A stretch of DNA of 64,000 bases from Candidatus Dormiibacterota bacterium (GTDB taxonomy: Bacteria; Chloroflexota; Dormibacteria; Aeolococcales; Aeolococcaceae): NCBI GenBank assembly GCA_963709585.1, contig CAVPXI010000023.1, positions 64,001 to 128,000 on the forward strand, read 5' to 3'. Each line of letters opens with the position of its first letter. The stretch's first letter is position 1. The notes under the pieces are model-generated. The model was not told the origin of the DNA, ran no database searches, and saw nothing but the letters and a program-made list of their open reading frames with translations. The translations under genes were made by a program, and so were the position numbers. Shown here in pieces: positions 1 to 15,886 of this stretch.

Positions 1-211
1 AGAATCCCGCGCTACTGCGTTCGCGCAGTGACAATGCGACGGGTGCGGACAATCAGCAGGAAAGGCTGCTCAGCGTGAGCAGAATCCTCAGAGACCATAC
101 GCCGGACGGTTCACGCGAACTGAAGATATGGTCCCATCTGCATGGCGACATGCAGGGGAGCGCACCGCTAGTGCTCTCCCGCTCGAGCAACGATGTTTGG
201 GTAAGAGATTA
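1..211 (+). ncRNA. Group I intron (IB4-like) at 23S position L1931, 5' part outside window
   Basis: Q element AATCAGCAGG (51-60), R element TCAGAGACCATAC, S element AAGATATGGTCC (P7 GACCA/TGGTC compensatory to the usual GACTA/TAGTC), P9 hairpin CTGCATG-GCGA-CATGCAG plus P9.1/P9.2; exon resumes at A1932 (212). Confidence 0.9.
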
Positions 212-231
212 AGCGAAATTCCTTGTCGGGT

Positions 232-483
232 AAGTGAATAAACGAGCCCGTACCGGCTAATATCGGTGAAGCCCGAACGACAGCGTGCGGCTGTGCGAGG
301 GTGATACCGAGGGAAGTCGTCCAACCGAGTTGGATTGACCCTGTATCGACTGAGGCAATGTGCCGAAGGTTGTCACCCGCATCACACCGGTGGTGCAAAT
401 CCTTGTGGCAGCCAATACGCCGGCAAAGTCTAACGAGACTTTGAAGTTATAGTCAGTGCCTCCAGTAATGGAGGGAAGACATG
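232..483 (+). ncRNA. Group I intron (IA3-like) at 23S position L1951, 252 nt, no homing endonuclease ORF
   Basis: Inserted after CGGGT (U1951); P1 exon CGGGU pairs with guide GCCCG (U.G wobble); P AATATCGGTGAA, Q GATACCGAG, R TGTATCGACTG, S AAGTTATAGTCAG; terminal G at 483 followed by exon AAGTTCCGACC. Confidence 0.92.
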
Positions 484-762
484 AAGTTCCGACCCGCACG
501 AATGGCGTAACGAGATGGGCGCTGTCTCGGCCACGTACTCGGCGAAACTGAAGTACCTGTGAAGATACAGGTTACCCGCAGCAGGACGGAAAGACCCCGT
601 GGAGCTTTACTATAACTTGCCACTGAAATGGGGTCCAGCATGTAGAGGATAGCTGGGAGACTGTGAAGTCGGGCCGCTAGGTTCGGTGGAGTCAACCTTG
701 GAATACCAGCCTTGCTGGATTTTATTTCTAACCGGCGCCGTTATCCGGTGTCGGGACCGTGG

Positions 763-795
<33 letters not shown>

Positions 796-952
796 CAAAC
801 GGTAACGGAGGCGCCCAAAGGTTCCCTCAGCCTGGATGGAAATCAGGCCTTGGCGTGTAATGGCGTAAGGGAGCTTGACTGTGAGGCCGACAAGCCGAGC
901 AGGGACGAAAGTCGGGCATAGTGATCCGACGACTCTGAATGGAAAGGTCGTC

Positions 953-989
<37 letters not shown>

Positions 990-1019
990 GATCTTGCCCA
1001 AGAGTTCACATCGACGGCA

Positions 1020-1061
<42 letters not shown>

Positions 1062-1065
1062 GAGT

Positions 1066-1102
<37 letters not shown>

Positions 1103-1594
1103 TACGCGAGCTGGGTTTAGAACGTCGTGAGACAGTTCGGATCGTATCCGCTGTGGGCGCAGGAGATTTGAGGAGAGCTGACCTTAGTACGAGAGGACCG
1201 GGTTGGACGGACCGCTAGTGCACCAGTTGTTCTGCCAAGAGCATCGCTGGGTAGCCATGTCCGGATGGGATAAGCGCTGAAAGCATCTAAGTGCGAAGCC
1301 CACTCCAAGATAAGATCTCCCACCGGATAACCGGGTAAGACCCCAGAGAGACCATCTGGTTGATAGGCCGCGGGTGTAAGAGAGGTGACTCTTTGAGCTG
1401 AGCGGTACTAATCGGTCGAGGGCTTGACCTCCTATCCCACTTTTCAGCGACGAGTGGGATGGCGCCAATGGTGGCGCCGCAGGAAAGTGCAACGCCTGGC
1501 AGAGCGCTCGAGTAGCGCACTAGGATTCTCCGACGGAGAGCGCATGCGCTTCCGTGGACCAGAACTCGCATTCTCACTCGTCATGAGAGAGATA

Positions 1595-1711
1595 TCCGGT
1601 GATCATAGCGGTGGGGAAACACCTGTTCCCATCCCGAACACAGCAGTTAAGCCCACCAGCGCCGATGGTACTGCCCTGGCAACGGGGTGGGAGAGTAGGT
1701 CGTTGCCGGGT
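1595..1711 (+). rRNA. rrf: 5S rRNA
   Basis: CACCTGTTCCCATCCCGAACACAGCAGTTAAG...GCGCCGATGGTACTG...GGGAGAGTAGGTCGTTGCCGG; flanked by complementary GAGAGAGATA/TATCTCTCT processing stem. Confidence 0.97.
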
Positions 1712-1810
1712 ATCTCTCTTTTGTTTTCCGGGCTCTGAGGCGGATTTGTATATGAAACAGAGCAGGTAAGTGCTAAGGACATATAGCACGGCGCTAAAAG
1801 AGTAGATAAT
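1703..1810 (+). repeat. att junction 1 (5S 3' core plus element left-end motifs)
   Basis: Core 1703-1717; motif A AAACAGAGCAGGTAA at +52; motif B TAGCACGGCG at +81. Confidence 0.9.
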
Positions 1811-1817
1811 AGCGGCG

Positions 1818-2734
1818 ATGCCGAAGCGCGCCGCCGCCCCGCAGCTCACCCTCGAGGGCGCCTGGCAGAGCTTTGACCGCTCCCTCCGAGCCGAGGGACG
1901 ATCGCCCGAAACCCGGCGCGCCTATGCCCAATCGGTCGCTCAGTTCGGGGCCTATCTGCGCGACCGGAGCCTGGCGTCCGAGGTGGCCCTGATCGACCGC
2001 GGTGACCTCGAGAACTGGATCATCACCCTCCTCGACTCCCGCAAGCCCGCCACCGCAGCCACCCGTCACCACGCCCTGGCTCGCCTGTTCTCGTGGCTGG
2101 TGGCCGAGGGCGAACTGGATCGCTCCCCGATGGAGCGGATGGAAGTGCCGAAGGTCCCCGAGAATCCTCCGACCGTGCTGAGCATCGAGGACATGCGGCG
2201 CATCCTGGCGGTGTGCAAGGGCACCGAGTTCGATGAGCGCCGCGACGCGGCTATCTTGCGCGTGCTGGTCGATACCGGCCTGCGCCTCGCCGAGCTCACC
2301 GGCCTGACCTTGGATGACGTCGACCTCGATGAGGGGTTGGCAACAGTCACCGGCAAGGGCGGCGCCGCCGTGCCGTGCCACTCGGCGCGAAGTCGACGGC
2401 CGCACTCGACCGATACCTCAGGGTCCGCCACGCCCACCCGCACCATCGCAGCTCGCACCTTTGGCTCGGCCAGAAAGGTCCGCTGACCGCGACCGGGATG
2501 CGCCAGGTGGTGCAGCGCCGGGCGCGTCAGGCAGGGTTGGATCAGCGCATCTGGCCGCATCTGTTCCGGCATACCGGCGCACATCAATGGCTCGCCGCGG
2601 GTGGCTCCGAGGGCGACCTGATGAGCCTCTATGGGTGGCGATCGAGCGCGATGCTGCGCCGCTACGGCTCGTCAGCGGCAGCCGAGCGCGCCCGCAAAGC
2701 GCACGCCGACCTCTCGTTGGGCGACCGGGTATGA
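1818..2734 (+). CDS. Tyrosine recombinase/integrase (XerC/D-like), frameshift near 2365
   Basis: ORFs 1818-2486 and 2375-2734 join: SAM-like N-domain, TGLRLAEL (R), GKGG (K), HLFRH (HxxR), YGW, MLRRY (Y). Confidence 0.93.
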
Positions 2735-3488: not shown

Positions 3489-5063
3489 TGGGCGAGGACC
3501 CTGCCAGGGGTCCCCTGCCCGACCACGACGACAACGCTGACGATAACACCGGCGCGGATGAGGCGTTGCTCGCGGCCGCGCAGCAAGTCATCGATAGGGG
3601 GTTAGATGTCGGTCCCAACCTCGCGGGGCTGACGCCCGAGGAACGGGCCAGCGCACTCGCGGCCTTCGCGCACGAGATCGTCCGGGTACCGCCTCCCCTC
3701 GCCGATGTGCTCGCGTCGACGTGCGAACTCCTGCGCCGCTACATCGTCCTACCTGCCGATCACTACTACCTGGTGGTCGCGCTCTGGATCCTGCACGCGC
3801 ACGCGATCACGGCAGCCGACACCACGCCGCGGCTGATCTTCAAGTCGCCCGAGAAGGAAAGCGGGAAAACCCGTTGCCTCGAGTGTCTCGACGCGCTGGT
3901 GCCGGCGCCGCTGCAGGTCATCAGCGTCACCACGGCCGCGATCTTCCGACTGCTCAAGGAGGAGCAGGTGACCGTGTTGTTTGACGAGGTGGACGCCATC
4001 TTCAATCCACGGGCGACCAACCAGGAGGATTTGAGGGCACTGTTGAACGCCGGGTATCGCCGCGGCGCGACGGTTGCTCGAAGTCGTCGGCGACGGTAAA
4101 CGGATGCGGGTCGAACGATTCCCGGTCTTTGCCGCCACCGCACTCGCCGCGATCGGCGATCTCCCCGACACGATCGAATCGCGGTCGATCATCGTCCCGA
4201 TGCGCCGGCGCGCACCCGATGAGACCGTGGCGAAGTTCCGTAGCCGCCAGGTCGCGCTCGAGGTCGTGGAATTGCGCGGCGACCTGGTCAACTGGGCATC
4301 GATTTATTCCGCGGAGCTCAGCAGAGCGGATCCTGTCATGCCGGACGGTCTTGAGGATCGGACCGAAGACTGCTGGGCGCCGCTGCTCGCCATCGCCGAC
4401 ATGGCCGGCGAGGAGTGGGGCGAGCGAGCCCGTGCAGCCGCACTGCTGATCGCCAAAGGTCGCGTCGCCGAGGATGCGTCCACAGGCGTCCGCCTGCTGG
4501 CCGATATCAAGACCGTCCTCGGCGACCGCGACCGCCTGTCCAGCGCCGGACTCTGCGCGATGCTCAACGCGCTCGAGGAATCGGGGTGGGGAGGATGGAA
4601 CGACGGCCGCGGCATCGGTCAACGTGACCTGGCGAAGCGGCTGAAGCGCTACTTCATTGAGTCGAAGAACATCAGGCTCGGTGACGGCTCGGTCCCGAAG
4701 GGTTACCTGCGCAGCGACTTTGACGATGCCTTCGCTCGCTACCTGCGCCTTCCTGCTCTTACAAGCGCTACAAGCGCTACAAGCGCTACGCAGGTTCGAA
4801 TTGACGTAGCGGACGTAGCGCCTGTAGCGGTTACTAGGGGAGAGAGAGAAGTCGGCCGGGAAGACGACGGTCACCCCACACAGGAGACATCCGCGACGCC
4901 GCTGGAGACGTTTCAACACCAGGTCGATGCAACGCTCACGAAGGTCAATGGACTGCAACCCGGCTGGCTTGAAGCCGATGATCAGCGCCGCCGCGAGTTG
5001 ATGGAGGCCGGCATGCGACACAAAGCGGAGCACAGTCGTCACACACATAGGAGGCACCCATGA
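3485..5063 (+). CDS. DUF3631-domain replication (primase/helicase-like) protein, frameshift near 4080
   Basis: ORFs 3485-4099 and 4074-5063; P-loop-like SPEKESGKT, VLFDEVD, LLNAGYRRG, DRTEDCWAPLLAIAD, KGYLRSDFDDAFARY. Confidence 0.85.
4760..4830. repeat. Convergent iteron-like arrays (putative origin of the element)
   Basis: (ACAAGCGCT)x3 giving CGCTAC x3 at 9-bp period, then GTAGCG x3 at 9-bp period in inverted orientation. Confidence 0.65.
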
Positions 5064-5314
5064 CTGACAAGCCCCAGAGCCCCAGTATGTTCACCCCTGA
5101 AGCCGCTGTCGCGACTGCCATCGCTCAGCTCGTCGACGTCTCCAACGGGCTCGGACTGATGGTCACCCTCGGGCGACACCTGGAGACTTCGGCCGCCAAC
5201 ACCGATGACATGCTGGACGCTCGGACGTACGTGCGCCGCGTGCAGGAGGCGCTGGCACACTGCCACGAGGCCGCCGACGCACTGCGAACCCTACTGCCGG
5301 CCAAGCCCGCGTGA
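5060..5314 (+). CDS. Hypothetical protein
   Basis: SD AGGAGG; ATGA overlap upstream and GTGA overlap downstream. Confidence 0.65.
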   Translation: MTDKPQSPSMFTPEAAVATAIAQLVDVSNGLGLMVTLGRHLETSAANTDDMLDARTYVRRVQEALAHCHEAADALRTLLPAKPA

Positions 5315-5685
5315 GCATCATGCGTCCGTGCCTCGATTGCGGCGCGCCGTACGAACCGCGGCGTGGCGTAGCACGTTGCCCACAGCATCAGCGTGAGTAC
5401 CGACGCACCCGTGAAGCACCCCTTTCGACGGCCGCCTGGCGCGCGCTCCGCGCCCGCAAGCTCAAGCGCAACCCGATCTGTGAGGACTGCGGACGACAGT
5501 GGGCTGTCCAGGTTCAGCACATCGTCCCACGGTCGATGGGCGGCGCCCTGCTGCCACCGCTGTCGGGACTGCGCGCCCTGTGTGTTGCCTGCCATGCGGT
5601 CTGGACAAACCGAGAGCGTCGCTGGGGCTACCGGCCGCCGCCAACTGTAGTGAACGACGACGACGAAGGACCGCGCGTCGCATGA
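5311..5685 (+). CDS. HNH endonuclease (terminase-associated, HK97 gp74-like)
   Basis: CLDCG...CPQH, WRALRARKLKRNPICEDCG, VQHIVPRSMGG, LCVACHAVWT. Confidence 0.85.
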   Translation: MSIMRPCLDCGAPYEPRRGVARCPQHQREYRRTREAPLSTAAWRALRARKLKRNPICEDCGRQWAVQVQHIVPRSMGGALLPPLSGLRALCVACHAVWTNRERRWGYRPPPTVVNDDDEGPRVA

Positions 5686-5850
5686 ACGCTGAGCATCGCA
5701 ACTCGCTTGAAAGCGCACAGCAAACCCCGAGGAATGGGGGGGCCAAATCCATCGCGTTTTTCCCTCCGGCGCGAACGCTGTTGGGCCACAATCCCGGTTA
5801 CACACTTTTCGCGATCGCAAAAGTCGTCGCACCAGGGGTGGGATGACCCC
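5686..5850 (+). other. Putative cos/packaging region
   Basis: Likely non-coding gap between HNH and TerL with GGGGGGG-CCAAATC, the usual cos position in HK97-type packaging modules (inference). Confidence 0.4.
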
Positions 5851-7302
5851 GTGAAAGCAGGCCCGAAAGCAGCCCCCACGGCCGAGCCGTTGACCTTTGA
5901 GGACCTTCCAGCGTCGGGTGGCGATCGGGTGGTTGCTTTCATCGAGCAGTACATCGTGCTGCCTCACGGGCGAGGGGCCAAGCGTCCGCTGGCGCTGCGT
6001 CCGTGGCAGCAGCGGATCATCCACGGCCTCTTTGACGAGCCGCGCCCGCGCCAGGGCCTGCTCAGCCTGCCACGTGGCAACGGCAAGACCACGCTCGCCG
6101 CGGCAATCGCTCTCTACGCCCTGTTTGGCGACGGCGAGGACTCGGCGCAAGTGCTCTGTGTAGCCTCGGATGAGCGCCAGGCCGCCATCCTATTTCGCAC
6201 TGCGCGGCGCATGATCGAGCTCGAGCCGCGACTGCTGGATCGCTGCCAGGTCTTCCAGGACCAGATTGTTGTGCCCTCCAGCGACGGGGTGCTTCGACCC
6301 TTGCCGGCTGAGAGCGCGGCCCTGCTGGGCTGGAATCCGAGCCTCTGTGTCGTCGACGAGTTGGCGGTCGTGACGGAGCGGGTGTGGGAGGCGGTGTCAG
6401 GCGCCGCCGGCAAGCGCGAGCGCAGTCTCACTCTGGCGATCTCCACCCCGCCCGAGAGCGTCGACAGCGTGATGTACGGCCTAGCCGAGCTTGGCCGCGA
6501 CGCTGACGACCCCAGTTTCTATTTCCAGGAGTTCTCCGCCCCCGCCGACTGCCTGATCGATGACGAGAGGGCGTGGGCAGTGGCTAACCCTGCGCTCGGC
6601 GATTTCCTGGCCATCGATGCGATGCGCAGCGTGCTGAGGACCATGCGTGAATCGACCTTTCGGCGCGCGCGTCTCGGTCAGTCGGTTTTTGGGAGCGAGA
6701 GTTGGATCAGCACCGAGCAGTGGAAGGCCGCGGCGGCCCCTGATCAGGAGATCCCTGAGGGCGCTGCGGTGTGTCTCGGCTTCGATGGATCCTTCTCCCG
6801 CGACGGGACTGCGCTGGTGGCCGTCTCTTGTGCGCGTCCGCACCACCTCCAGATAGTCGATCTCTGGGAGAAGACGTCCGACGACGGCCCGGCGTGGCGG
6901 GTGAGCACCGCCGATGTGGAGCAGGCGATCCGTGACGCCTGCACCACGTACCAGGTGCGGGCGATCGTGGCTGATCCGAGCTGGTGGGCGCAGACCATGC
7001 AAACGTTGGCGGGAGAGGGTCTTCCTGTGGTCGAGTTCCGGCCGAACTCGTCGCGGATGATTACCGCGAGCGAGAGATTCTACAAGGCGATTTGTGACGG
7101 CGACCTCAGCCACAGCGGCGAGCGCGACCTCACTCGCCACATCAGCAACGCGGTGCTACGGATGACGCCATCGGGACCGCGTGTCATGAAAGAGAGCAAG
7201 CAGAGTACCCGCCATGTTGACCTGGCCATCGCTGCGATCCTCGCGTACGACCAGGCGGCTCAGGTGGCACCCGAGCGCACGCCGCTGATCGCGTTCGTCT
7301 GA
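5851..7302 (+). CDS. terL: Terminase large subunit
   Basis: LRPWQ, Walker A PRGNGKTT, Walker B VVDEL, ISTP coupling motif, LGFDGSFSRDGT nuclease, VDLAIAAILAY; start GTG (VKAGPKA) inferred. Confidence 0.93.
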   Translation: MKAGPKAAPTAEPLTFEDLPASGGDRVVAFIEQYIVLPHGRGAKRPLALRPWQQRIIHGLFDEPRPRQGLLSLPRGNGKTTLAAAIALYALFGDGEDSAQVLCVASDERQAAILFRTARRMIELEPRLLDRCQVFQDQIVVPSSDGVLRPLPAESAALLGWNPSLCVVDELAVVTERVWEAVSGAAGKRERSLTLAISTPPESVDSVMYGLAELGRDADDPSFYFQEFSAPADCLIDDERAWAVANPALGDFLAIDAMRSVLRTMRESTFRRARLGQSVFGSESWISTEQWKAAAAPDQEIPEGAAVCLGFDGSFSRDGTALVAVSCARPHHLQIVDLWEKTSDDGPAWRVSTADVEQAIRDACTTYQVRAIVADPSWWAQTMQTLAGEGLPVVEFRPNSSRMITASERFYKAICDGDLSHSGERDLTRHISNAVLRMTPSGPRVMKESKQSTRHVDLAIAAILAYDQAAQVAPERTPLIAFV

Positions 7303-7352
7303 CATTTCTTTTGTTCAACGCTCGTTGCCGAAAACCACGCAAAGGAGAACCG

Positions 7353-7670
7353 ATGACTGACCGGATCAACGACCCGACCAAGCCGGGCTATTCCTGGATT
7401 GAGGTCAATCACCATGTCGCCGACATGGAGCAGGGCATCGCCGCCATCGTCGATGTGCGATGCCTGTTCGTCGGCCAGGACGGCAAGGTCGTCAACACGC
7501 CGGGAGTCGGCTTCCGGCTCGCCGACGCGGAAGCGCTTGCGGCTGACATTGTCGCCCACGCGCACGCGGCGTACCTCGAGGCCAGAGCTGCCGGCGGCGA
7601 CATGGAGGCCATCGAAGCGCTCGAGGAGGAAGCGCAGGGCTATGACGACGAGCGCAATTCTCGAAATTGA
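7353..7670 (+). CDS. Hypothetical protein (ORF-X; paralog at 11602)
   Basis: SD AAGGAG; C-terminus AYLEARAAGGDMEAIEAL...DDER resembles VHLEALADAGDAEAAELL...LDER of 11602-11925. Confidence 0.75.
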   Translation: MTDRINDPTKPGYSWIEVNHHVADMEQGIAAIVDVRCLFVGQDGKVVNTPGVGFRLADAEALAADIVAHAHAAYLEARAAGGDMEAIEALEEEAQGYDDERNSRN

Positions 7671-7687
7671 GGTGATACGATCAATTC

Positions 7688-7846
7688 ACGCTCCCGCGCT
7701 CACTGCTGAATGGCACTGAGCAGCCGCAAATCCGACAGCGTGTCGGTTTTGGGGGTAGGGACCGAAGGCGATACGCGCCGAGGCTGGCTGTGCCACCCGC
7801 GGAAGTAGCTGAACGGGCCGCGAAAGGCTCAATTTCAACGACTTCA
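7688..7846 (+). ncRNA. Candidate structured leader RNA of the capsid transcript
   Basis: Homologous to 12682-12820 with conserved stems and exchanged loops/hairpins; extended -10 TGATACGAT at 7673-7681. Confidence 0.65.
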
Positions 7847-7855
7847 ACGGGAGGC

Positions 7856-9331
7856 ATGAAAATGCCACGAGCACTCGCCGAGATTCGGCAAGAACAGACA
7901 CAACTGCGTGCGCGCGTCGGCCAACTGGTCGATGAGGCGCGCGAAATCGAAATCAAGCTCGAGGTCGACGGCGCCAACGACGGGCTCGAGGAGCGCAAAG
8001 CCAACGTGGAGCGCGGCAAGGCCAAGGCCAGCGCGCGACTGCAGGAGGTGGGCGCCGAGTACAGCGCGGCGATAACACGGATGGTCGAGAACGGCCAGAC
8101 GCAGACCGAGGCCGGCGTCAGCCTGGAGAACGCCTACACAGAGCGTCAGGACGACGACAGGACCGCGTCCATGGCGCCGCACCAGCGCCAGGCGGTCTCG
8201 GACGCCATGCGCGCCCTCGAGCGCCATCAGCGCGACGGTGTGCTGTTCACCACGGCGGCGGAGCGCATGGAGAATGTGGTTCGTCACGGTGACCCTACCG
8301 GCAGCACTGGGCGGTACATCGCCGCGGTGGGCGCGGACGCCTATGCGCGCGCGTTTGTCAAGCTGCTGACGTACGGCGACACGGCTGTGCTGCGCATGAC
8401 CTCTGAGGAACAGCAAGCCATGCAGCGCGTCAGCCAGGCCGAGTCCGAGCGCGCGATGTCCGACGGCACCACCACCGCCGGCGGATTCGGAATCCCGCTG
8501 ACAATTGATCCGACGATCAATTTGACGTCGTCGGGCGCGTTGTGTCCGGTCCGCGAGGTTGCGGACGTGCGCCAGATCGCCACCAACGAATTGCGCCTGG
8601 TGAGCGCTGACACGCCTGCGTCGGCATATGCAGCGGAATTGACCGAAGTGGCTGACGGCAGCCCGACTTTGGCGCAGCCGATCGCGGTCACCCAAAAAGG
8701 GCAGTCGTTTGTTCCATTTTCGATCGAGGTTGGGGCTGACTACCCTGGCCTGCAGAACGAGCTGCTCAAATTGCTCGCGGACGGTCGGGCGATATTGGAC
8801 AGTACGAAGATGCTTTCCGGCCTAGCAAGCGCCAACGAGCCGGTAGGCATCCTCGCCTCGACCGGCGGATTGACGACGTCGCAGCGCGTGCAAACGGCCG
8901 TTACTGGCACATTTGGCATCTCCGACGCGTACGCATTGCGAGAAGGCCTCGCCGCCACGCGGTTCTTTCAAAATGCGGTCTTTATGGCCCATCCGACCAC
9001 CATGGATGCGGCGTATCGACTGGTCGGCGGTGGGTCGACCACCGAGCCGCTGCCCATGCCTCAAGGCCGGAGCGGCCCGTTCGTCGGCACTCCGCAGTAC
9101 GGCTGGAATGCGATGGCAACCGGCACCACCACCGGTACCAAGATCCTCATCCTCGGCGACTGGAGCGGATACGTCGTCGCCGACAGGATTGGAGCTCAGG
9201 TTGAACTGGTGAGCCACCTGTTTGGAAGCGCGTCAAGGTTCCCAATCGGAGCTCGCGGGCTCTACTTCTACTGGCGCACGGGGACGTGTGTCCTGAAACC
9301 GAACGCATTTAGATATTTGGAAATGCGGTAA
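7856..9331 (+). CDS. Major capsid protein (HK97 fold) with N-terminal delta/scaffold coiled coil
   Basis: SD GGGAGG; RAMSDGTTTAGGFGIPLTID, AAELTEVADGSPT, VPFSIEV, EPVGIL, ILGDWS, PNAFRYL. Confidence 0.92.
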   Translation: MKMPRALAEIRQEQTQLRARVGQLVDEAREIEIKLEVDGANDGLEERKANVERGKAKASARLQEVGAEYSAAITRMVENGQTQTEAGVSLENAYTERQDDDRTASMAPHQRQAVSDAMRALERHQRDGVLFTTAAERMENVVRHGDPTGSTGRYIAAVGADAYARAFVKLLTYGDTAVLRMTSEEQQAMQRVSQAESERAMSDGTTTAGGFGIPLTIDPTINLTSSGALCPVREVADVRQIATNELRLVSADTPASAYAAELTEVADGSPTLAQPIAVTQKGQSFVPFSIEVGADYPGLQNELLKLLADGRAILDSTKMLSGLASANEPVGILASTGGLTTSQRVQTAVTGTFGISDAYALREGLAATRFFQNAVFMAHPTTMDAAYRLVGGGSTTEPLPMPQGRSGPFVGTPQYGWNAMATGTTTGTKILILGDWSGYVVADRIGAQVELVSHLFGSASRFPIGARGLYFYWRTGTCVLKPNAFRYLEMR

Positions 9332-9333
9332 CC

Positions 9334-10168
9334 ATGGCCGGACAGAGTCGCACCCTACGGGGACGTCGACTATGCAGATCCAGGTCTCCAAGCCGACAAG
9401 GTCAAGCGCTATCCGATCGATACCAAGGCGCACGCGAAGGCCGCGTGGACGCTCATCAACATGAGCTCGCACGCCTCGCAGTATTCGGCTGCGGACCTCG
9501 CGCTGGTCAAGGGCAGGATCCTGACGGCGTGTCATCACTTCGACGTCGAGGTGAGCGAGAACGCCCTGCCGCGCGAGGGGTTGATCCGGGCGCTCTCGGG
9601 CCTGGAGATCCGCGACGATGGCGGCGCGGATGGCAGTCCGGGGACATTGACCGGATACCTCGCGGTGTTCAATCAATGGAGCGAAATCAACTCGGCCCAC
9701 GAAGGTCACTTCATGGAGCGGATGGCGCCGGGATCGTTCGCCCGGACCATCGCTGACAACGCGTCACGCATGAAGGTCACCTTCAATCACGGTAAGGATC
9801 CGCAGTTGGGCGACAAGGTGCTGGGCATCCCCACCGTCCTCGAGGAGGACAGCCGCGGAGTGCGCTATGAGGTGCCGCTGTTCGACACATCATGGAATCG
9901 CGACCTTGCTCCCGGATTGAAGGCCGGCGCCTACGGCTCCAGCTTCCGGTTCAACGTGGCCGCCGACGACTACAACAAGAAGGCCAGGGTCGCTCCGCAC
10001 AACCCCAGAGGCTTGCCGGAGAGGACGGTCAAGGAAGTCCGCATGCAGGAGTTCGGCCCGGTCACCTTCCCCGCATACCCGGGCGCGACCGCGGGGATGC
10101 GCTCGCTGACGTCGCCCGCGCGCGGTCAATCCGTGTTCGAGGAGTTCCTACAGCTGATCGGAGGCTGA
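9334..10168 (+). CDS. HK97 prohead protease with N-terminal DUF6582-like domain, +1 frameshift near 9340
   Basis: Frame of 9461 extends upstream to PYGDVDYADPG...KRYPIDTKAHAKAAW; protease LTGYLAVFNQWSEI, FNHG, GSSFRF, EFGPVTFPAY. Confidence 0.88.
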
Positions 10169-10583: not shown

Positions 10584-10588
10584 GTAGC

Positions 10589-10765
10589 AAACAGAGCAGA
10601 TAATTCGGCCTCGCTCGCTCATGACACGCAAGATGCGAACGTCGTCATAGCACGGCGTACAGTCCCGGATACTTGCCGGGTATCTCTTTCTTGTTTACCG
10701 GCCCCTCGCGCGGTTTGGTATTCAAAACAGAGCAGGTAAGTGCTCGAGCCCCATAGCACGGCGCG
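10589..10765 (+). repeat. att junction 2 (right end of unit 1, left end of unit 2)
   Basis: Motif A at -84, motif B at -25, core 10673-10687, motif A at +52, motif B at +81. Confidence 0.9.
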
Positions 10766-10937
10766 TTCGTGCCGGCGACATCTGGCGAAGCCTGCCCGGG
10801 ACGCAGCAGTGGATCCAGTTGGTGTCGGTGTGGAACCATCAACCGCCGAGCTCGAGGGCGGATGGCGCCGAGTACCAGGTGGCCGCGTCATCCCGCCGCA
10901 CAACTCCGGGCTCACAGTCAGAGTTGATTGGGCGCCG

Positions 10938-11982: not shown

Positions 11983-12612
11983 ATGGCCCTGTCGGTGCGG
12001 ACCGTCATCCCTTTCTATCGGCTCGGGTTCGGCCTACTCGTGCTCGTGGCCATCCTTATACAGATGGTGTCGCTCGGCCAGTCGGGTGTCCTCGACCCGC
12101 TGCATTACCTCACCTACTTCACCAACCTCAGCAACATGATCGCGGCCGTCGTATTTATCGTTGGCGCGACGGGCTGGCGCTATGTGCGGTCACCCGCCTT
12201 CGACGTGGTGAGGGGCGGTGCGGTCGTGTACATGACCATCACGGGCGTCGTCTTTGCAGTCCTTTTGAGCGGTGTCAATGTCGATGCCCAACTGCGATGG
12301 GTCAACGATCTCATCCACCAGGTGTTTCCAATTGTTGTCCTTGCTGATTGGTTGCTCGACCCGCCCAAGGCACGGGTGACGCTCAGGCAAGGGGTGCTGT
12401 GGCTGACTTTCCCGGTCGCCTGGGCGGCATACGAACTGATCCGCGGAGCGACCTCGGGGAAGTATCACTATCCGTTCCTGAATCCGGTCAACGGCGGGTA
12501 CGGAAGCGTCGCCCTCTACGTGGTCGTGATCTCCGTATTCACGCTCATTGTCTCCGGAGTTGTCGTGTGGCTCGCAAACGCTCGGAGGCACCTCGAGCAC
12601 GAGCCCGCATAG
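11983..12612 (+). CDS. Pr6Pr (FAR-17a/AIG1-like) membrane protein
   Basis: YFTNLSN, HQVFP..VLADWL, YHYPFLNP; about six TM helices. Confidence 0.85.
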   Translation: MALSVRTVIPFYRLGFGLLVLVAILIQMVSLGQSGVLDPLHYLTYFTNLSNMIAAVVFIVGATGWRYVRSPAFDVVRGGAVVYMTITGVVFAVLLSGVNVDAQLRWVNDLIHQVFPIVVLADWLLDPPKARVTLRQGVLWLTFPVAWAAYELIRGATSGKYHYPFLNPVNGGYGSVALYVVVISVFTLIVSGVVVWLANARRHLEHEPA

Positions 12613-12681
12613 GAGAAACTCCCGGCCACATCTCCGGACGCTAAGAGAGAGCGCCGAACGATCCCGTGCTAAGATGAGCCT

Positions 12682-12820
12682 ACGATCCGCGTACCGCTGC
12701 TGAGCTGCACCGGACAGACGCCCGCGGCGGTGAGGACCGAAGGCTGCAAGCGCCGAGGCTGGAACGTCCACCCGCGGAAGTCATGTGAACGCCGCATTGG
12801 CGGCGACTTCGACGACTTTA
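12682..12820 (+). ncRNA. Second copy of the candidate capsid leader RNA
   Basis: GGACCGAAGGC...GCGCCGAGGCTGG-N5-CCACCCGCGGAAGT shared with 7759-7806; extended -10 TGCTAAGAT at 12667-12675. Confidence 0.65.
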
Positions 12821-12821
12821 C

Positions 12822-12875
12822 CTCGAAATCAAGTTGGACATCGACGGCGCAGACGCCGGCCTCGAGGAGTGGGAA
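12822..12875 (+). pseudogene. Capsid gene remnant
   Basis: Encodes LEIKLDIDGADAGLEE versus IEIKLEVDGANDGLEE in the capsid of unit 1. Confidence 0.7.
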
Positions 12876-13043
12876 TCGCGCCCTTCAGCGGAGGACGGTC
12901 CGCGCCCGACATTCAACGGTCCGGCCGGTATTCCTTCCCGACCTACTCGACGCGCGATCGGACGTGAGTTACGCTACGCACCTTTGGAGCTGGCGTCGTG
13001 GGGACGTTTAGCTGCGGAGAGCGTTCGACGCCTTTGGCGCGGC

Positions 13044-13085: not shown

Positions 13086-14004
13086 ATGAAACTCACCAAC
13101 GTCATCGGCACTGTGATCGCCGCGTTGAGCCTCGCGGCTGGTGGATCGACAGTCGCGCCGACTGTTTCTCCAACTTCCGCGCTAACTGTCGGGGCAACCG
13201 TAGCGCCGACTCCCAGCGCAACGCCCACCGCGACACCCACGCCAACTCCGATCGCCACGCCCACTCCGTCTGCAAGGCCTACGCCCGCACCGCCTGTGCT
13301 CGTGCTCGTCGAAACGTGCGATGGCTCCGCAAACGCTGACAACTATGGCAGCGTGACGTTCTCTGGTGACACACCCGGCTTCGACTTCGTAGTGTACGGT
13401 CCTGGGCGATTGGGTGGATGGGCAGGGGCAACGACAGCAGATGCAAGTGGCGACGGAACAGTCAGCGACCTTACTGCTGATGACTATGAGTTCAACAACT
13501 TCGCACCCGCCGATATGCCGGGAACACTCACCGGCTCGTTCGCCATCGTGGCGTGCCCGCCGACGCCCACGTATAGCGTCACACAGACATGCGCCGCCCC
13601 TGGTAGTGCTCAGGGCGGGAGCGTGATGATTACCTTCGCAGGTGGCACGCCTGACACCGTTGTTATTGACGGCAATACCGTGGACGTGACCGGCAACCCG
13701 TTCACCTATGGGCCCCTCACCGTGGGCGATCACAGGATCACCGTTGAAGGTTTCGTCTGGCCAGTCACCATTACCGCGTGCGTATCTACGCCGCACTTGA
13801 CCGTCACAGTCTGACGGTGCTCCGGGCCGCGTGGCATGGACCGGCACCAAGACGGGTGACACACTCTTTATCGGCGCCGGCGCGTTTTCCGTCACTCTTC
13901 CGACTGGCACCGGTGGCACGTCTGGACCACTCCCAGCTGGGACGTTCGACACCGAGAGTGGCAGCGGCACGTCAGCGCTCGGCGGCCCAAAACACAGTAG
14001 ATAA
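13086..14004 (+). CDS. Secreted Pro/Thr-linker protein with Cys-bracketed repeat domains (lipoprotein paralog), probable frameshift near 13812
   Basis: MKLTNVIGTVIAALSLAAGGST (lipobox Cys replaced by Gly); repeats TC..GSVTF...ACP; another frame continues DGAPGRVAWTG to a stop in att motif A. Confidence 0.7.
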
Positions 14005-14096
14005 TTCACCCACCGACGCTCGAGACACTCGAGATCGGAAAGCCGAGGTAGCACAGCGCTAAACCCGTGGATGGTTGCCGGGTATCTCTCTTTTTT
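13990..14096 (+). repeat. att junction 3 (right-end motifs only)
   Basis: Motif A AAACACAGTAGATAA at -85, motif B TAGCACAGCG at -26, core 14075-14089; downstream motifs absent. Confidence 0.88.
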
Positions 14097-14134
14097 ACTC
14101 CACGCCGAGGACTGGAACGTCGACTGCACGGTCG

Positions 14135-14500: not shown

Positions 14501-14677
14501 AAACACAGCAGATAAGTGGGAGCCGTACGCTCGACCCACCCAGGATCAGAGTAGCCGAGGGCACAGCGCTAAACGCCTGGATGGTTGCCGGGTATCTCTC
14601 TCTTGTTTTCCGGCCTCTGGCGCTGTTCTGTATTCGAAACCGAGCAGGTAAGCGCTCAGGCGACATAGCACGGCGCC
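14501..14677 (+). repeat. att junction 4
   Basis: Motif A at -84, motif B at -26, core 14585-14599, motif A at +52, motif B at +81. Confidence 0.9.
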
Positions 14678-14728
14678 AAGCGAGGCGACCCCCCCAACGC
14701 TCCACATCGATCTGAGAGATTAGGCGCG

Positions 14729-15724
14729 ATGCTCAGATACATCGTCAGCCGCGTCCTGCAGGCGGTGCTGGTCGTCATCGGCGTCGCGACAGTGGTGTTC
14801 TTCCTCGAGCGTCTGATGCCCGGCGACCCGGGAAGGATCATGCTGGGACCGCGCCTCGGCCCGGCCCAGTGGGCGATCTACGACCATCAGAACGGGTTCG
14901 ACCAGCCGATCCCGGTCCAGTACATCGACTTCCTCGCGAATCTTTTCCACGGGAGGATCGCCTTCACGCCGCCGGGATTCGCCGACCAGATCGACCCCTT
15001 CGAGGGTGGCGTGGTCGACGTCGATCTCCAGTCGCTGGTTAAGGGACCGATGATCAACTCGCTGATCCTGACTGGTCTGTCGACACTGTTGGTGATAGCC
15101 CTCACCATCCCCATCGCCCTCTACGAAGCGGCACGGCGGCGCCGGCGTGGAGCGCACCTCTCAAACATCATCTCGATGACGCTGTACTCGATCCCGCCGT
15201 ACCTACTGGGCACGTGGCTCATCCTGGTTCTTGCGACGGATCTGAACTGGATCAATCTGAATACGCCGAATTGGAGCACGGGCGATGTACTCGCCGATCC
15301 GGCGGCGCTGATTCTCCCCACGCTGACCCTGTCAACGGGAACGGTCGCGCTGTTCACCCGCTATCTCCGGGCGTCGACGATCGATGAGCTGACCAAGGAC
15401 TACATCACAACGGCGCGAGCCAAGGGCGCCTCCCGCTCCCGAGTCAGCCTGCGCCATGCGCTCCCCAACGCTTCGTTACCGATCATCACCCTGCTCGGCA
15501 CGCGCCTTCCCCAGATCTTCGGTGCCCAGCTCGTCGTGGAGGTGCTTTTTGGATATCCGGGGCTGGGAACCACGCTGTGGAGCGCAGCGATGAATCACGA
15601 CTTCTACTCCATGCTGGGAGCAATCCTGATCGCTGGCGTTCTCACCACTCTCGGCTCGCTGATCACCGACTTGATCTACGCGGCGGTCGATCCTCGTATC
15701 CGATATGTCCATGCTCGGAGCTGA
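14729..15724 (+). CDS. Orphan peptide/nickel ABC transporter permease (OppB/DppB family)
   Basis: MLRYIVSRVLQ, PGDPG, GFDQPIPVQY, EAA-like DYITTARAKGAS, RHALPNA, DPRIRY. Confidence 0.92.
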   Translation: MLRYIVSRVLQAVLVVIGVATVVFFLERLMPGDPGRIMLGPRLGPAQWAIYDHQNGFDQPIPVQYIDFLANLFHGRIAFTPPGFADQIDPFEGGVVDVDLQSLVKGPMINSLILTGLSTLLVIALTIPIALYEAARRRRRGAHLSNIISMTLYSIPPYLLGTWLILVLATDLNWINLNTPNWSTGDVLADPAALILPTLTLSTGTVALFTRYLRASTIDELTKDYITTARAKGASRSRVSLRHALPNASLPIITLLGTRLPQIFGAQLVVEVLFGYPGLGTTLWSAAMNHDFYSMLGAILIAGVLTTLGSLITDLIYAAVDPRIRYVHARS

Positions 15725-15736
15725 TTCGCGCGCCCC

Positions 15737-15886
15737 AAAGACAGCAGATAATTCGGGCTCGCTCGCTAAGGACATGCAAGATACATAGCGTGCGATAGCA
15801 CGGCGCATAGTCCCGTATGCTTGCCGGTATCTCTCTTGTTTTCCTGGCAGCAACCGAGCTTGCGTTGTCGAAACTGAGTAGATAAC
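15737..15886 (+). repeat. att junction 5 (more diverged)
   Basis: Motif A at -84, motif B at -25, core TTGCCGGTATCTCT 15821-15834 (one G fewer), motif A AAACTGAGTAGATAA at +50. Confidence 0.85.

What the first reader, a model, noticed from the sequence alone, without database searches (positions are those of the whole stretch)
7673..7855. Candidate novel structured leader RNA upstream of the capsid gene, conserved in two diverged copies
Seen: 7688-7846 aligns with 12682-12820. Both begin ACG 7 nt after an extended -10 box (TGATACGAT, TGCTAAGAT) and share a closing stem CCGCG/CGCGG, hairpins GGT-N4-ACC, GGC-N7-GCC and TGG-N5-CCA with different loops, and a 3' arm GAAGT..TGAA-[hairpin]-TTCR..ACTTY whose inner hairpin is fully exchanged (GGGCC/GGCTC versus GCCGC/GCGGC). 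It ends just before the capsid SD and survives in unit 2 although the capsid there is deleted. I do not recognise the family. Inference: cis-regulator (helper sensing, antitermination, autoregulation) or a trans-acting/packaging RNA.
Basis: partly seen in the sequence, partly recalled or inferred. Interest (0 to 1): 0.8.

Follow-up and report, generated by a model that had tools for sequence, protein, structure and literature searches.

The report
New folded leader RNA before capsid gene
The stretch in front of the capsid gene of a small phage-satellite-like island encodes a previously undescribed folded RNA whose shape is kept by compensating mutations, and it probably controls when the island makes its capsid protein.

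Summary
A ~175-nt leader (window ~7688-7861, + strand) lies between a conserved extended -10 box and the capsid ribosome-binding site. A second full copy lies at 12678-12821 in a decayed neighbouring unit.

A covariance model built from six sequences found two held-out relatives, plus ten metagenome loci that were picked only by capsid similarity. 17 of the 18 matches abut a capsid start.

On 15 distinct sequences, 95.5% of cells pair and 17 of 37 pairs change on both sides. Shuffles give 4.0 +/- 1.6 (0 of 500 reach 17); slid partners give 1-3.

The fold is a three-way junction (P0-P1-P2) followed by hairpins P3, P4 and P5. Its closing stem and its GGT/ACC hairpin are not supported, and it missed the junction.

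The 5' strand of P0 also covaries with the ribosome-binding site, so I read the RNA as a translational on/off switch for the capsid-protease module. That mechanism is inferred. A background control makes the site-masking only moderately unusual, and no RNA data were available.

The RNA was found in only one bacterial family, in 8 of 117 genomes.

The parts
7353..7670 (+). Small acidic protein gene (about 105 aa from the internal Met; the ORF as listed starts at 7311). Its stop lies just before the promoter.
   Evidence: It is homologous by blastp to the ORFs just upstream of the RNA in L054, L033, L052/L053 and L051. It has no Pfam or PHROGs family and no useful Atlas lead.
7673..7681 (+). Extended -10 promoter box of copy 1
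   Evidence: One of 7 matches to TGNTANNNT in the window. The same box lies at a fixed distance in 12 of 15 members. No -35/-10 promoter was found by the simple scan. That this is the promoter is inferred.
7688..7861 (+). Leader RNA, copy 1. The start is inferred at about 7688; the RNA ends at the base before the capsid ATG.
   Evidence: R1 scores 141.6 bits over 7684-7861 and R2 scores 130.5 bits. The region is non-coding: no frame is open in all members.
7689..7695 (+). P0 5' strand. It is also complementary to the ribosome-binding site (anti-SD 1).
   Evidence: The fold of the 5' domain shows it. It pairs with 7758-7764. The alternative pairing with the SD region is 90% paired, reached by 1 of 500 shuffles.
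7698..7721 (+). P1 hairpin: 5 outer pairs, a 1x1 C/C internal loop, and 3-4 inner pairs
   Evidence: 98.2% of cells are paired. Three pairs change on both sides, all three in this window copy.
7724..7754 (+). P2, a variable hairpin. It is about 15-20 nt longer here than in other members.
   Evidence: Per-sequence folds show a hairpin of differing sequence at this place in most members.
7758..7764 (+). P0 3' strand (G-rich, resembles a ribosome-binding site)
   Evidence: The lengths of the C run and the G run change together among members.
7767..7779 (+). P3 hairpin
   Evidence: 90.7% paired, with one pair changed on both sides.
7782..7797 (+). P4 hairpin
   Evidence: 93.8% paired, and 4 of 6 pairs change on both sides.
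7792..7802 (+). C-rich tract: the P4 3' strand plus the linker. It is a second possible anti-SD.
   Evidence: It pairs with the SD in most minimum-energy folds. Duplex energy with the SD region is -13.5 kcal/mol here.
7802..7845 (+). P5 arm: outer stem, P5a, and the exchangeable apical hairpin P5b
   Evidence: Helices 5-7 are 97.7-100% paired, and 8 of their 15 pairs change on both sides. The apical part is absent in G117, G061 and L066.
7850..7854 (+). Shine-Dalgarno sequence of the capsid gene
   Evidence: Read from the sequence; it lies 7 nt before the ATG at 7862. It is paired in the minimum-energy fold, and freeing it costs 13.2 kcal/mol.
7853..7866 (+). Small hairpin (P6) spanning the end of the SD and the start codon
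   Evidence: Seen in the folds. Other members have a hairpin of different sequence at the same place. No formal test was made.
7862..9331 (+). HK97-type major capsid protein gene (489 aa)
   Evidence: Pfam Phage_capsid, E = 9.5e-20. The start was set by homologues.
9461..10168 (+). Prohead serine protease gene
   Evidence: Pfam Peptidase_S78, E = 1.1e-23. PHROG 80.
12667..12675 (+). Extended -10 box of copy 2
12678..12821 (+). Leader RNA, copy 2. All helices are kept, but the SD and the start codon are deleted.
   Evidence: R1 scores 136 bits and R2 scores 133.3 bits.
12823..12869 (+). Remnant of the capsid N-terminus in unit 2
   Evidence: 83% identical to 7947-7993.

Best explanation
This is a cis-acting regulatory leader of the capsid-protease module of a small satellite-like island.

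HOW I THINK IT WORKS
1. Transcription starts about 7 nt after a conserved extended -10 box.
2. The first ~75 nt fold into a three-way junction: P0 closes P1 and P2. Hairpins P3, P4 and P5 follow, then the ribosome-binding site.
3. The 5' strand of P0 can pair in two ways. It can pair with the G-rich strand after P2, which closes the junction. Or it can pair with the ribosome-binding site about 140 nt downstream.
4. A second C-rich tract (the P4 3' strand plus linker) can also cover the site.
5. My reading is a two-state switch. When the junction is held closed, the site is free and capsid is translated. Otherwise the site is masked.

SHOWN: the RNA, its fold, its link to the capsid start, and both alternative pairings.

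INFERRED: that the pairings act as a switch, and that some factor sets the state. That factor could be a helper-phage or induction-specific protein, the capsid/scaffold protein itself, or a small molecule.
For: FAMILY AND POSITION
- Model R1 was built from 6 sequences. Over 38 sources it gave 18 matches at E <= 4.2e-5. These include the two held-out genomes, G117 (50.4 bits) and G061 (43.3 bits), and 10 of the 19 metagenome loci chosen only by capsid similarity.
- 17 of the 18 abut a capsid start, and the 18th abuts a capsid remnant. All lie on the capsid strand.

FOLD
- On 15 distinct rows, 95.5% of 491 cells pair. Shuffles give 88.0 +/- 0.6 and slid partners give 32-51%.
- 17 of 37 pairs change on both sides. 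Shuffles give 4.0 +/- 1.6 (0 of 500 reach 17) and slid partners give 1-3.
- RNAalifold run de novo recovers P1, P3, P4, P5, P5a and P5b.
- The junction is the unconstrained minimum-energy fold of the 5' domain in 7 of 14 members. P0 differs in sequence and length among members while staying paired.

SWITCH
- The 5' strand paired with the SD region is 90% paired, against 84.5 +/- 1.4 in shuffles (1 of 500 reach it). Its covariation score is 0.255 against 0.159, and slid partners give 38-76%.
- The two duplexes are close in energy in the window's genus.
- The SD is paired in the minimum-energy fold of 13 of 13 intact members. Freeing it costs 4.7-13.2 kcal/mol.

PROMOTER, CODING AND CONSERVATION
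- The -10 box is conserved.
- The leader is non-coding.
- Its DNA identity is about that of the capsid coding sequence and well above that of the 240 nt upstream.
Against: - No expression data exist, so the transcript, its 5' end and its strand are inferred.
- The strand test is weak: 10 G-U cells against 9 A-C cells. Five of the A-C cells come from a known misalignment of P0.
- Site masking is only moderately unusual. In 21 other SD-preceded long ORFs of the window, freeing the site costs a median of 4.9 kcal/mol (range 0-12.6), and 57% reach 4.7. The family median is 7.6. Only the window's capsid gene stands out, as the highest of the 21.
- Two different anti-SD tracts are possible, and folding picks one or the other by member.
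- G016 and L051 have weak P4-tract duplexes, at -4.2 and -7.0 kcal/mol. L066 has almost no 5'-strand duplex, at -0.7.
- All three double changes in P1 come from one sequence, the window copy.
- The members are close relatives from one family. Alignment A7 was fitted to the model, which leans the counts towards the structure.
- P0 could not be counted cleanly by column because its register shifts between members.
Confidence: 0.5

Rival explanations
1. It is a processive antitermination RNA of the HK022 put or conAn type. The nascent leader would bind RNA polymerase, alone or with a protein, and let it read through terminators in the late operon.
For: The folded domain begins at the inferred first base of the transcript, right after the promoter. 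It heads a morphogenesis operon of a mobile element. Precedents exist: putRNA (PMC9378689) and conAn (PMC8191782). For both I saw only the search listing and the start of the abstract.
Against: No terminator-like site lies in the leader. None lies inside the capsid-protease unit on the + strand; the only ones follow the protease stop and the 5S-like repeat. The simple scan needs a T run, so terminators of another type would be missed. This reading does not explain why the 5' strand covaries with the ribosome-binding site.
Confidence: 0.12
2. It is a constitutive structural leader. It would protect the capsid mRNA from 5' decay, or it would be a processing site (for example for RNase III on the long P5 arm), with no switching.
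For: It has stable hairpins at the 5' end and a long P5 arm of about 15 pairs in most members.
Against: A protective hairpin needs no conserved 150-nt multi-helix fold with a junction. The long P5 arm is missing in 3 of 14 members that still keep the rest. Covariation with the ribosome-binding site is not expected for a stabiliser.
Confidence: 0.13
3. It is a trans-acting RNA: a small regulatory RNA or decoy, or a packaging RNA of the phi29 pRNA type, which also has a three-way junction.
For: Copy 2 keeps its promoter and every helix although its capsid gene is gone. No portal gene was found among the island's ORFs that I scanned.
Against: 17 of 18 matches run straight into a capsid ribosome-binding site. 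No terminator ends the RNA. The one other orphan, in G008, is decayed: it has lost P1, P2 and the promoter. No Rfam family, pRNA included, matches. Copy 2 may simply be a recent deletion.
Confidence: 0.07
4. It is a DNA-level site: a packaging (cos/pac) site, or an operator made of inverted repeats.
For: It lies within 400 bp downstream of the terminase gene in the window. A-C cells are nearly as many as G-U cells.
Against: In other loci no terminase lies upstream within the DNA held, and the neighbours there are different genes. Operators keep their sequence, whereas here helices change sequence and keep pairing. Five nested or adjacent helices with variable loops are not an operator pattern. 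The P1 motif is no commoner elsewhere in five genomes than its reversed control.
Confidence: 0.04

Closest known systems
Translational riboswitches and other leaders that mask the ribosome-binding site by alternative pairing
   Same: It has a conserved, covarying sensor-like domain at the 5' end. One strand of the closing helix can also pair with the ribosome-binding site.
   Different: No ligand is known. The competing partners lie about 140 nt apart with three hairpins between them. A second anti-SD tract exists. No Rfam riboswitch model matches.
Autoregulatory mRNA leaders bound by the protein they encode, such as ribosomal-protein leaders. Post-transcriptional autoregulation of the phage P22 scaffolding protein is recalled from memory; my search did not surface a paper on it.
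   Same: It is a structured leader directly before a structural gene whose product must be made in balance with its partners. The RNA was found only with capsids that share the long N-terminal part.
   Different: Binding was not tested. L056 and L057 share the capsid N-terminus at about 45% identity but lack this RNA.
HK022 putRNA (PMC9378689, listing and abstract start) and the conAn RNA-protein system of conjugative elements (PMC8191782, listing and abstract start)
   Same: Each is a folded RNA at the very start of a transcript of a mobile element, ahead of late or transfer genes.
   Different: No terminators were found downstream. This RNA is larger, with five to six helices, and it ends at a ribosome-binding site with which it covaries.
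Structured leaders before the capsid genes of enterobacterial capsid-forming PICIs, as described in earlier notes of this scan (unchecked AI notes)
   Same: The place and the apparent logic are the same: a conserved folded leader between a promoter and a satellite capsid gene, hiding the ribosome-binding site.
   Different: There is no sequence similarity (one search found no look-alike). Those notes describe terminator-like hairpins, and none is seen here. The hosts belong to another phylum.
Mycobacterial phiRv1/phiRv2-type small prophage-like elements, grouped with PICI satellites by de Sousa et al. 2023 (PMC10085698, passages read)
   Same: For the element, not the RNA: integrase, DUF3631 protein, terminase, capsid and prohead protease in about 9 kb, with no tail genes found.
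   Different: The gene order I give for phiRv2 is recalled, not checked. The only phiRv2 RNA my search surfaced is ncRv12659 at the Rv2660c locus (PMC3861185, listing and abstract start), which is not a capsid leader.

Membership tests
Any Rfam 15 family | The covariance-model score reaches the family's gathering score | tested here: not met
   The whole window at gathering score gave only LSU rRNA, 5S rRNA and a tRNA. The permissive scans of both copies gave a best E of 0.97, from snoRNA models. In six other members nothing lay on the RNA.
Riboswitch with a translational expression platform | A conserved aptamer-like domain whose fold is supported by covariation | tested here: met
Riboswitch with a translational expression platform | Mutually exclusive pairings, one of which masks the ribosome-binding site | tested here: inconclusive
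   Both pairings exist and both covary. But the cost of freeing the site overlaps the background of the window's other genes.
Riboswitch with a translational expression platform | Specific binding of a small molecule | not testable with these tools
   This needs in-line probing or binding assays.
put-type or conAn-type antiterminator RNA | Terminators downstream that the modified polymerase reads through | tested here: not met
   The simple scan found none in the leader or inside the capsid-protease unit on the + strand. Terminators without a T run would be missed.
put-type or conAn-type antiterminator RNA | Direct action of the RNA on RNA polymerase | not testable with these tools
   This needs in vitro transcription.
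phi29-type packaging RNA | A free-standing RNA that is not part of an mRNA leader, and a match to the family model | tested here: not met
   17 of 18 matches run into a capsid ribosome-binding site. There is no Rfam match.
Terminator/antiterminator attenuator | A hairpin followed by a T run before the gene | tested here: not met
   There are 0 terminator-like sites on the + strand in 7500-8000 and in 12500-13000.
Phage satellite of the PICI / phiRv type (for the element) | An integrase with flanking direct repeats, a replication-type gene, and packaging or capsid genes without tail genes | tested here: met
   Integrase, split by a frameshift. Repeats of the 5S 3' end at 1702, 10672, 14074 and 14584. 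DUF3631, HNH, TerL, capsid and protease. No portal or tail family was found among the ORFs scanned.
Phage satellite of the PICI / phiRv type (for the element) | Mobilisation by a helper phage | not testable with these tools
   No helper was identified. The capsid search found one match in the window's own genome, which is the island itself.

The most novel reading that the evidence does not exclude
The leader is the sensor by which a phage satellite detects that a helper phage is active. A helper-made protein, or a small molecule specific to infection, would bind the three-way junction and lock P0. That would free the ribosome-binding site, so the satellite makes its own capsid only when a helper is there to supply the rest of the virion. 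Together with the unrelated leaders noted earlier before enterobacterial satellite capsid genes, this would make RNA-level gating of capsid synthesis a general satellite strategy that arose more than once.
Probability: 0.22. Interest if true: 0.85.

Novelty: new variant of a known kind. Interest (0 to 1): 0.6.

Why it matters
How satellites time the production of their own capsids is poorly understood. The known controls are proteins acting on promoters.

A conserved, covarying RNA placed exactly between a plain-looking promoter and the capsid ribosome-binding site points to control after transcription starts. It gives a compact object of about 135-175 nt that can be probed, mutated and tested with reporters.

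It is also a new bacterial RNA family with a three-way junction and near-invariant junction bases. RNAs of that kind have often turned out to bind a specific partner.

Its reach is narrow: one family of mostly uncultured bacteria plus soil-type metagenome contigs. That limits its general weight, unless the parallel with the enterobacterial satellite leaders holds.

Tried and rejected
- Rfam at gathering and at permissive thresholds found no family.
- A viral-collection scan with a pattern built on P1 gave 5 hits, all chance matches in GC-rich coding DNA.
- The viral collection searched with the capsid alignment gave 3 distant loci without the RNA.
- In the cultured-phage collection, the capsid is only 28-35% identical to Gordonia, Rhodococcus and Mycobacterium phages. 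The RNA has no blastn match there.
- Sequencing runs: no RNA holder was listed.
- The G035 triple hit is an unrelated 177-nt tandem repeat.
- Weak model hits in the window's own genome (C13 at 26 bits, C4 at 23 bits) lie inside ORFs of 930 and 497 aa, so I took them as chance.
- Filters-off search of 16 loci with more distant capsids (54.7 kb) gave a best E of 0.12, not at a capsid start.
- Adding the outer pairs of P0 to the column count was dropped, because the register shifts between members.
- The P1 motif is not enriched elsewhere: its counts in five genomes match the reversed control.
- The small upstream protein gave no family and no useful Atlas lead.
- Earlier scan notes by place and by sequence returned nothing.
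- Literature searches for a described capsid leader in satellites or actinobacterial prophages surfaced none. One search failed on a term format. The supplements of the papers were not opened.

Full report
WHAT IS THERE

The window opens with the 3' part of a 23S rRNA gene and a 5S rRNA gene (1595-1711). A roughly 9-kb island follows. It holds these genes:
- a tyrosine integrase split by a frameshift (1818-2734);
- a DUF3631 protein (4074-5063);
- an HNH endonuclease (5311-5685);
- a large terminase (5707-7302);
- a small acidic protein (7353-7670);
- an HK97-type capsid protein (7862-9331);
- a prohead protease (9461-10168).

No portal or tail family was found among the ORFs I scanned. The last bases of the 5S gene and its downstream flank recur at 10672, 14074 and 14584. 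The island therefore looks like the first of a tandem array inserted at the 3' end of 5S rRNA.

The finding lies in the 190-nt gap between the small protein gene and the capsid gene. Its second copy lies in the next unit.

THE OBSERVATION

The two copies align. An extended -10 box precedes each, at 7673-7681 and 12667-12675. That box is rare here: TGNTANNNT occurs 7 times in 64 kb on both strands, against a shuffle mean of 14.7.

Unit 2 shares only the leader and 47 nt of the capsid N-terminus with unit 1. About 100 nt, including the ribosome-binding site and the start codon, are missing from it.

Folding energy alone is not telling: z = -2.57 for copy 1 and +0.55 for copy 2. Rfam has nothing. 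The gathering scan of the window found only rRNAs and a tRNA, and the permissive scans of both copies gave only noise at E >= 0.97.

RELATIVES

By DNA search, 4 of 42 genomes of the genus hold the leader, the window's own included.

A capsid-protein search of 374 genomes of the class found 15 with a relative. The 300 nt upstream of the six closest capsid relatives (three in the window's genus; G069, G117 and G061 in two others) showed the leader too, in diverged form in the last three.

I then aligned six capsid proteins and used that alignment to fetch loci from metagenomes. This choice does not depend on the RNA. It returned 19 loci.

I built model R1 from six leaders, leaving out G117 and G061. 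Over 38 sources it gave 18 matches at E <= 4.2e-5:
- both held-out genomes, at 50.4 and 43.3 bits;
- 10 of the 19 metagenome loci.

17 of the 18 end at a capsid start, and the other is copy 2. Fifteen rows are distinct; L054 equals G017, L065 equals G007, and L052 equals L053.

Where the RNA was not found:
- Nine metagenome loci lacked a match. Two of them (L061, L063) hold no upstream DNA and cannot be judged.
- Eight genomes with more distant capsids lacked it.
- A filters-off search of 16 such loci gave nothing better than E = 0.12.

With model R2 the distribution was as follows:
- 8 of 117 genomes of the family have the RNA. One of them (G008) is a decayed copy without P1, P2, promoter or capsid.
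- 0 of 117 genomes of the other families in the class sample have it.
- 0 of 150 genomes in the phylum sample have it, apart from the window's genome.

G117 and G061 are unpublished genomes. The held-out test, the compact form of the RNA and part of the P0 and P4 evidence rest on them, and nothing from them may be published without their depositors' leave.

THE FOLD

The consensus has these parts:
- **P0**: a helix of 4-7 pairs that closes a three-way junction.
- **P1**: nearly invariant in sequence, with a C/C internal loop.
- **P2**: a hairpin of variable sequence and length, 15-20 nt longer in the window copy.
- **P3**, then **P4**.
- **P5**: an arm whose apical part (P5a, P5b) is absent in G117, G061 and L066.
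- The ribosome-binding site follows, 7 nt before the ATG.

On alignment A7 the 37 modelled pairs are 95.5% paired. Shuffles give 88.0 +/- 0.6 and slid partners give 32-51%. Seventeen pairs change on both sides; shuffles give 4.0 +/- 1.6 (0 of 500 reach 17) and slid partners give 1-3.

Caveats on these counts:
- The alignment was fitted to the model.
- The sequences are relatives from one family.
- All three double changes in P1 come from the window copy.

Independent support:
- RNAalifold run de novo recovers P1, P3, P4, P5, P5a and P5b.
- P0 and P2 are poorly served by column counts because of indels. Folded alone, the 5' domain gives the junction as its minimum-energy fold in 7 of 14 members. 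P0 then differs in sequence and length while staying paired; its C run and G run are 3 and 3, 2 and 2, or 4 and 5 nt long in different members.

The leader is non-coding. No frame is free of stops in all members, and three members have stops in all three frames.

Its DNA identity between members is about that of the capsid coding sequence and well above that of the 240 nt upstream.

CONTEXT

A prohead protease follows the capsid in the window, L050, L053, L054 and L030. It was not found in the DNA held for L032, L033 and L052.

The upstream neighbours vary:
- a homologous small acidic protein in the window, L033, L051, L052/L053 and L054;
- an HNH gene further up in L052;
- a TacA/GNAT pair in L050.

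Only the window has a terminase just upstream, among the stretches held. The promoter and leader thus head a self-contained capsid module.

Related elements in G016, G069 and G117 lie 3.5-5.7 kb from a tRNA gene, not from a 5S gene.

De Sousa et al. 2023 (PMC10085698, passages read) group the comparable mycobacterial phiRv1/phiRv2 elements with PICI satellites.

HOW IT MAY WORK

In the minimum-energy folds of 13 of 13 intact members (leader plus 15 nt of coding sequence), the ribosome-binding site is paired. Freeing it costs 4.7-13.2 kcal/mol.

Its partner is one of two C-rich tracts:
- **The tract just 5' of P5.** This is also the 3' strand of P4, so P4 and this pairing exclude each other. 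Duplexes run from -4.2 to -13.5 kcal/mol, and in L066 the helix is a perfect 12 pairs.
- **The 5' strand of P0.** RNAalifold chooses this pairing over P0. It is 90% paired, which 1 of 500 shuffles reach. It holds compensating changes: where the bases after the core of the site differ (L051, G117), the 5' strand differs to match. The two duplexes open to the 5' strand are close in energy in the window's genus.

One strand that covaries with two partners is what a two-state switch looks like.

Against over-reading this: in 21 other SD-preceded long ORFs of the window, freeing the site costs a median of 4.9 kcal/mol, and 57% reach 4.7. The window's capsid gene is the highest of the 21. Masking is therefore shifted upward but is not exceptional across the family.

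No terminator-like site lies in the leader or inside the capsid-protease unit. No RNA run was listed for this stretch.

COMPARISON AND NOVELTY

It works most like a translational riboswitch or a protein-bound autoregulatory leader, but it belongs to no described family. I searched the literature four times and found no description of a capsid leader RNA in satellites or in actinobacterial prophages. I did not open any supplements.

Earlier notes of this scan (unchecked AI notes) describe unrelated leaders that hide the ribosome-binding site before the capsid genes of enterobacterial capsid-forming PICIs. If those hold, RNA-level gating of satellite capsid genes may be a recurrent solution.

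VERDICT

It is a real, new, narrowly distributed structured leader RNA. Cis control of capsid translation is the best-supported role. What sets its state is unknown.

Noticed in passing
window 1702-1802, 10672-10772, 14074-14101, 14584-14684: The last bases of the 5S rRNA gene and its downstream flank are repeated three more times. The islands therefore appear to form a tandem array inserted at the 3' end of a 5S rRNA gene, which is an unusual attachment site. Related elements in G016, G069 and G117 lie near tRNA genes instead.
   Followed up: partly
window 1818-2734: The island's tyrosine integrase is split by a frameshift. Catalytic-domain positions 3-66 lie in one frame and positions 70-170 in another. 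This could be decay or an assembly error.
   Followed up: partly
window 1-1431: The 23S rRNA alignment to the Rfam model shows two large insertions, of about 190 and 253 nt, near model positions 1930-1990.
   Followed up: no
L056 2270-2465 and L057 1700-1894: A sister clade of capsids (about 45% identical) has its own conserved non-coding stretch of about 180 nt before the capsid start. The two are alike but cannot be aligned to this RNA with confidence. With only two sequences, no covariation test was possible.
   Followed up: partly
window 7353-7670; L033, L051, L052, L053, L054: A conserved small acidic protein of about 105-124 aa, with no known family, ends just before the promoter of the leader in most loci.
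   Followed up: partly
L082 1501-1628 (G008): This is a decayed copy of the leader. P1 and P2 are deleted, it has no -10 box, and no capsid gene follows, yet the 3' arm and the ribosome-binding site are nearly intact.
   Followed up: yes
L050 1315-2243: A TacA-type antitoxin gene and a GNAT acetyltransferase gene, a likely toxin-antitoxin pair, sit directly upstream of the leader in this metagenome element.
   Followed up: no
window 10588-10679, 13989-14080, 15736-15827: A 92-nt repeat precedes each 5S-like repeat. A further copy lies beyond an ABC-transporter permease gene (14729-15724). Its meaning for the array's borders is unclear.
   Followed up: no
L053 3599-4552, L054 2682-3785: In these loci the prohead protease is fused to a DUF6582 domain at its N-terminus. 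The window's protease shows only a faint DUF6582 match.
   Followed up: no
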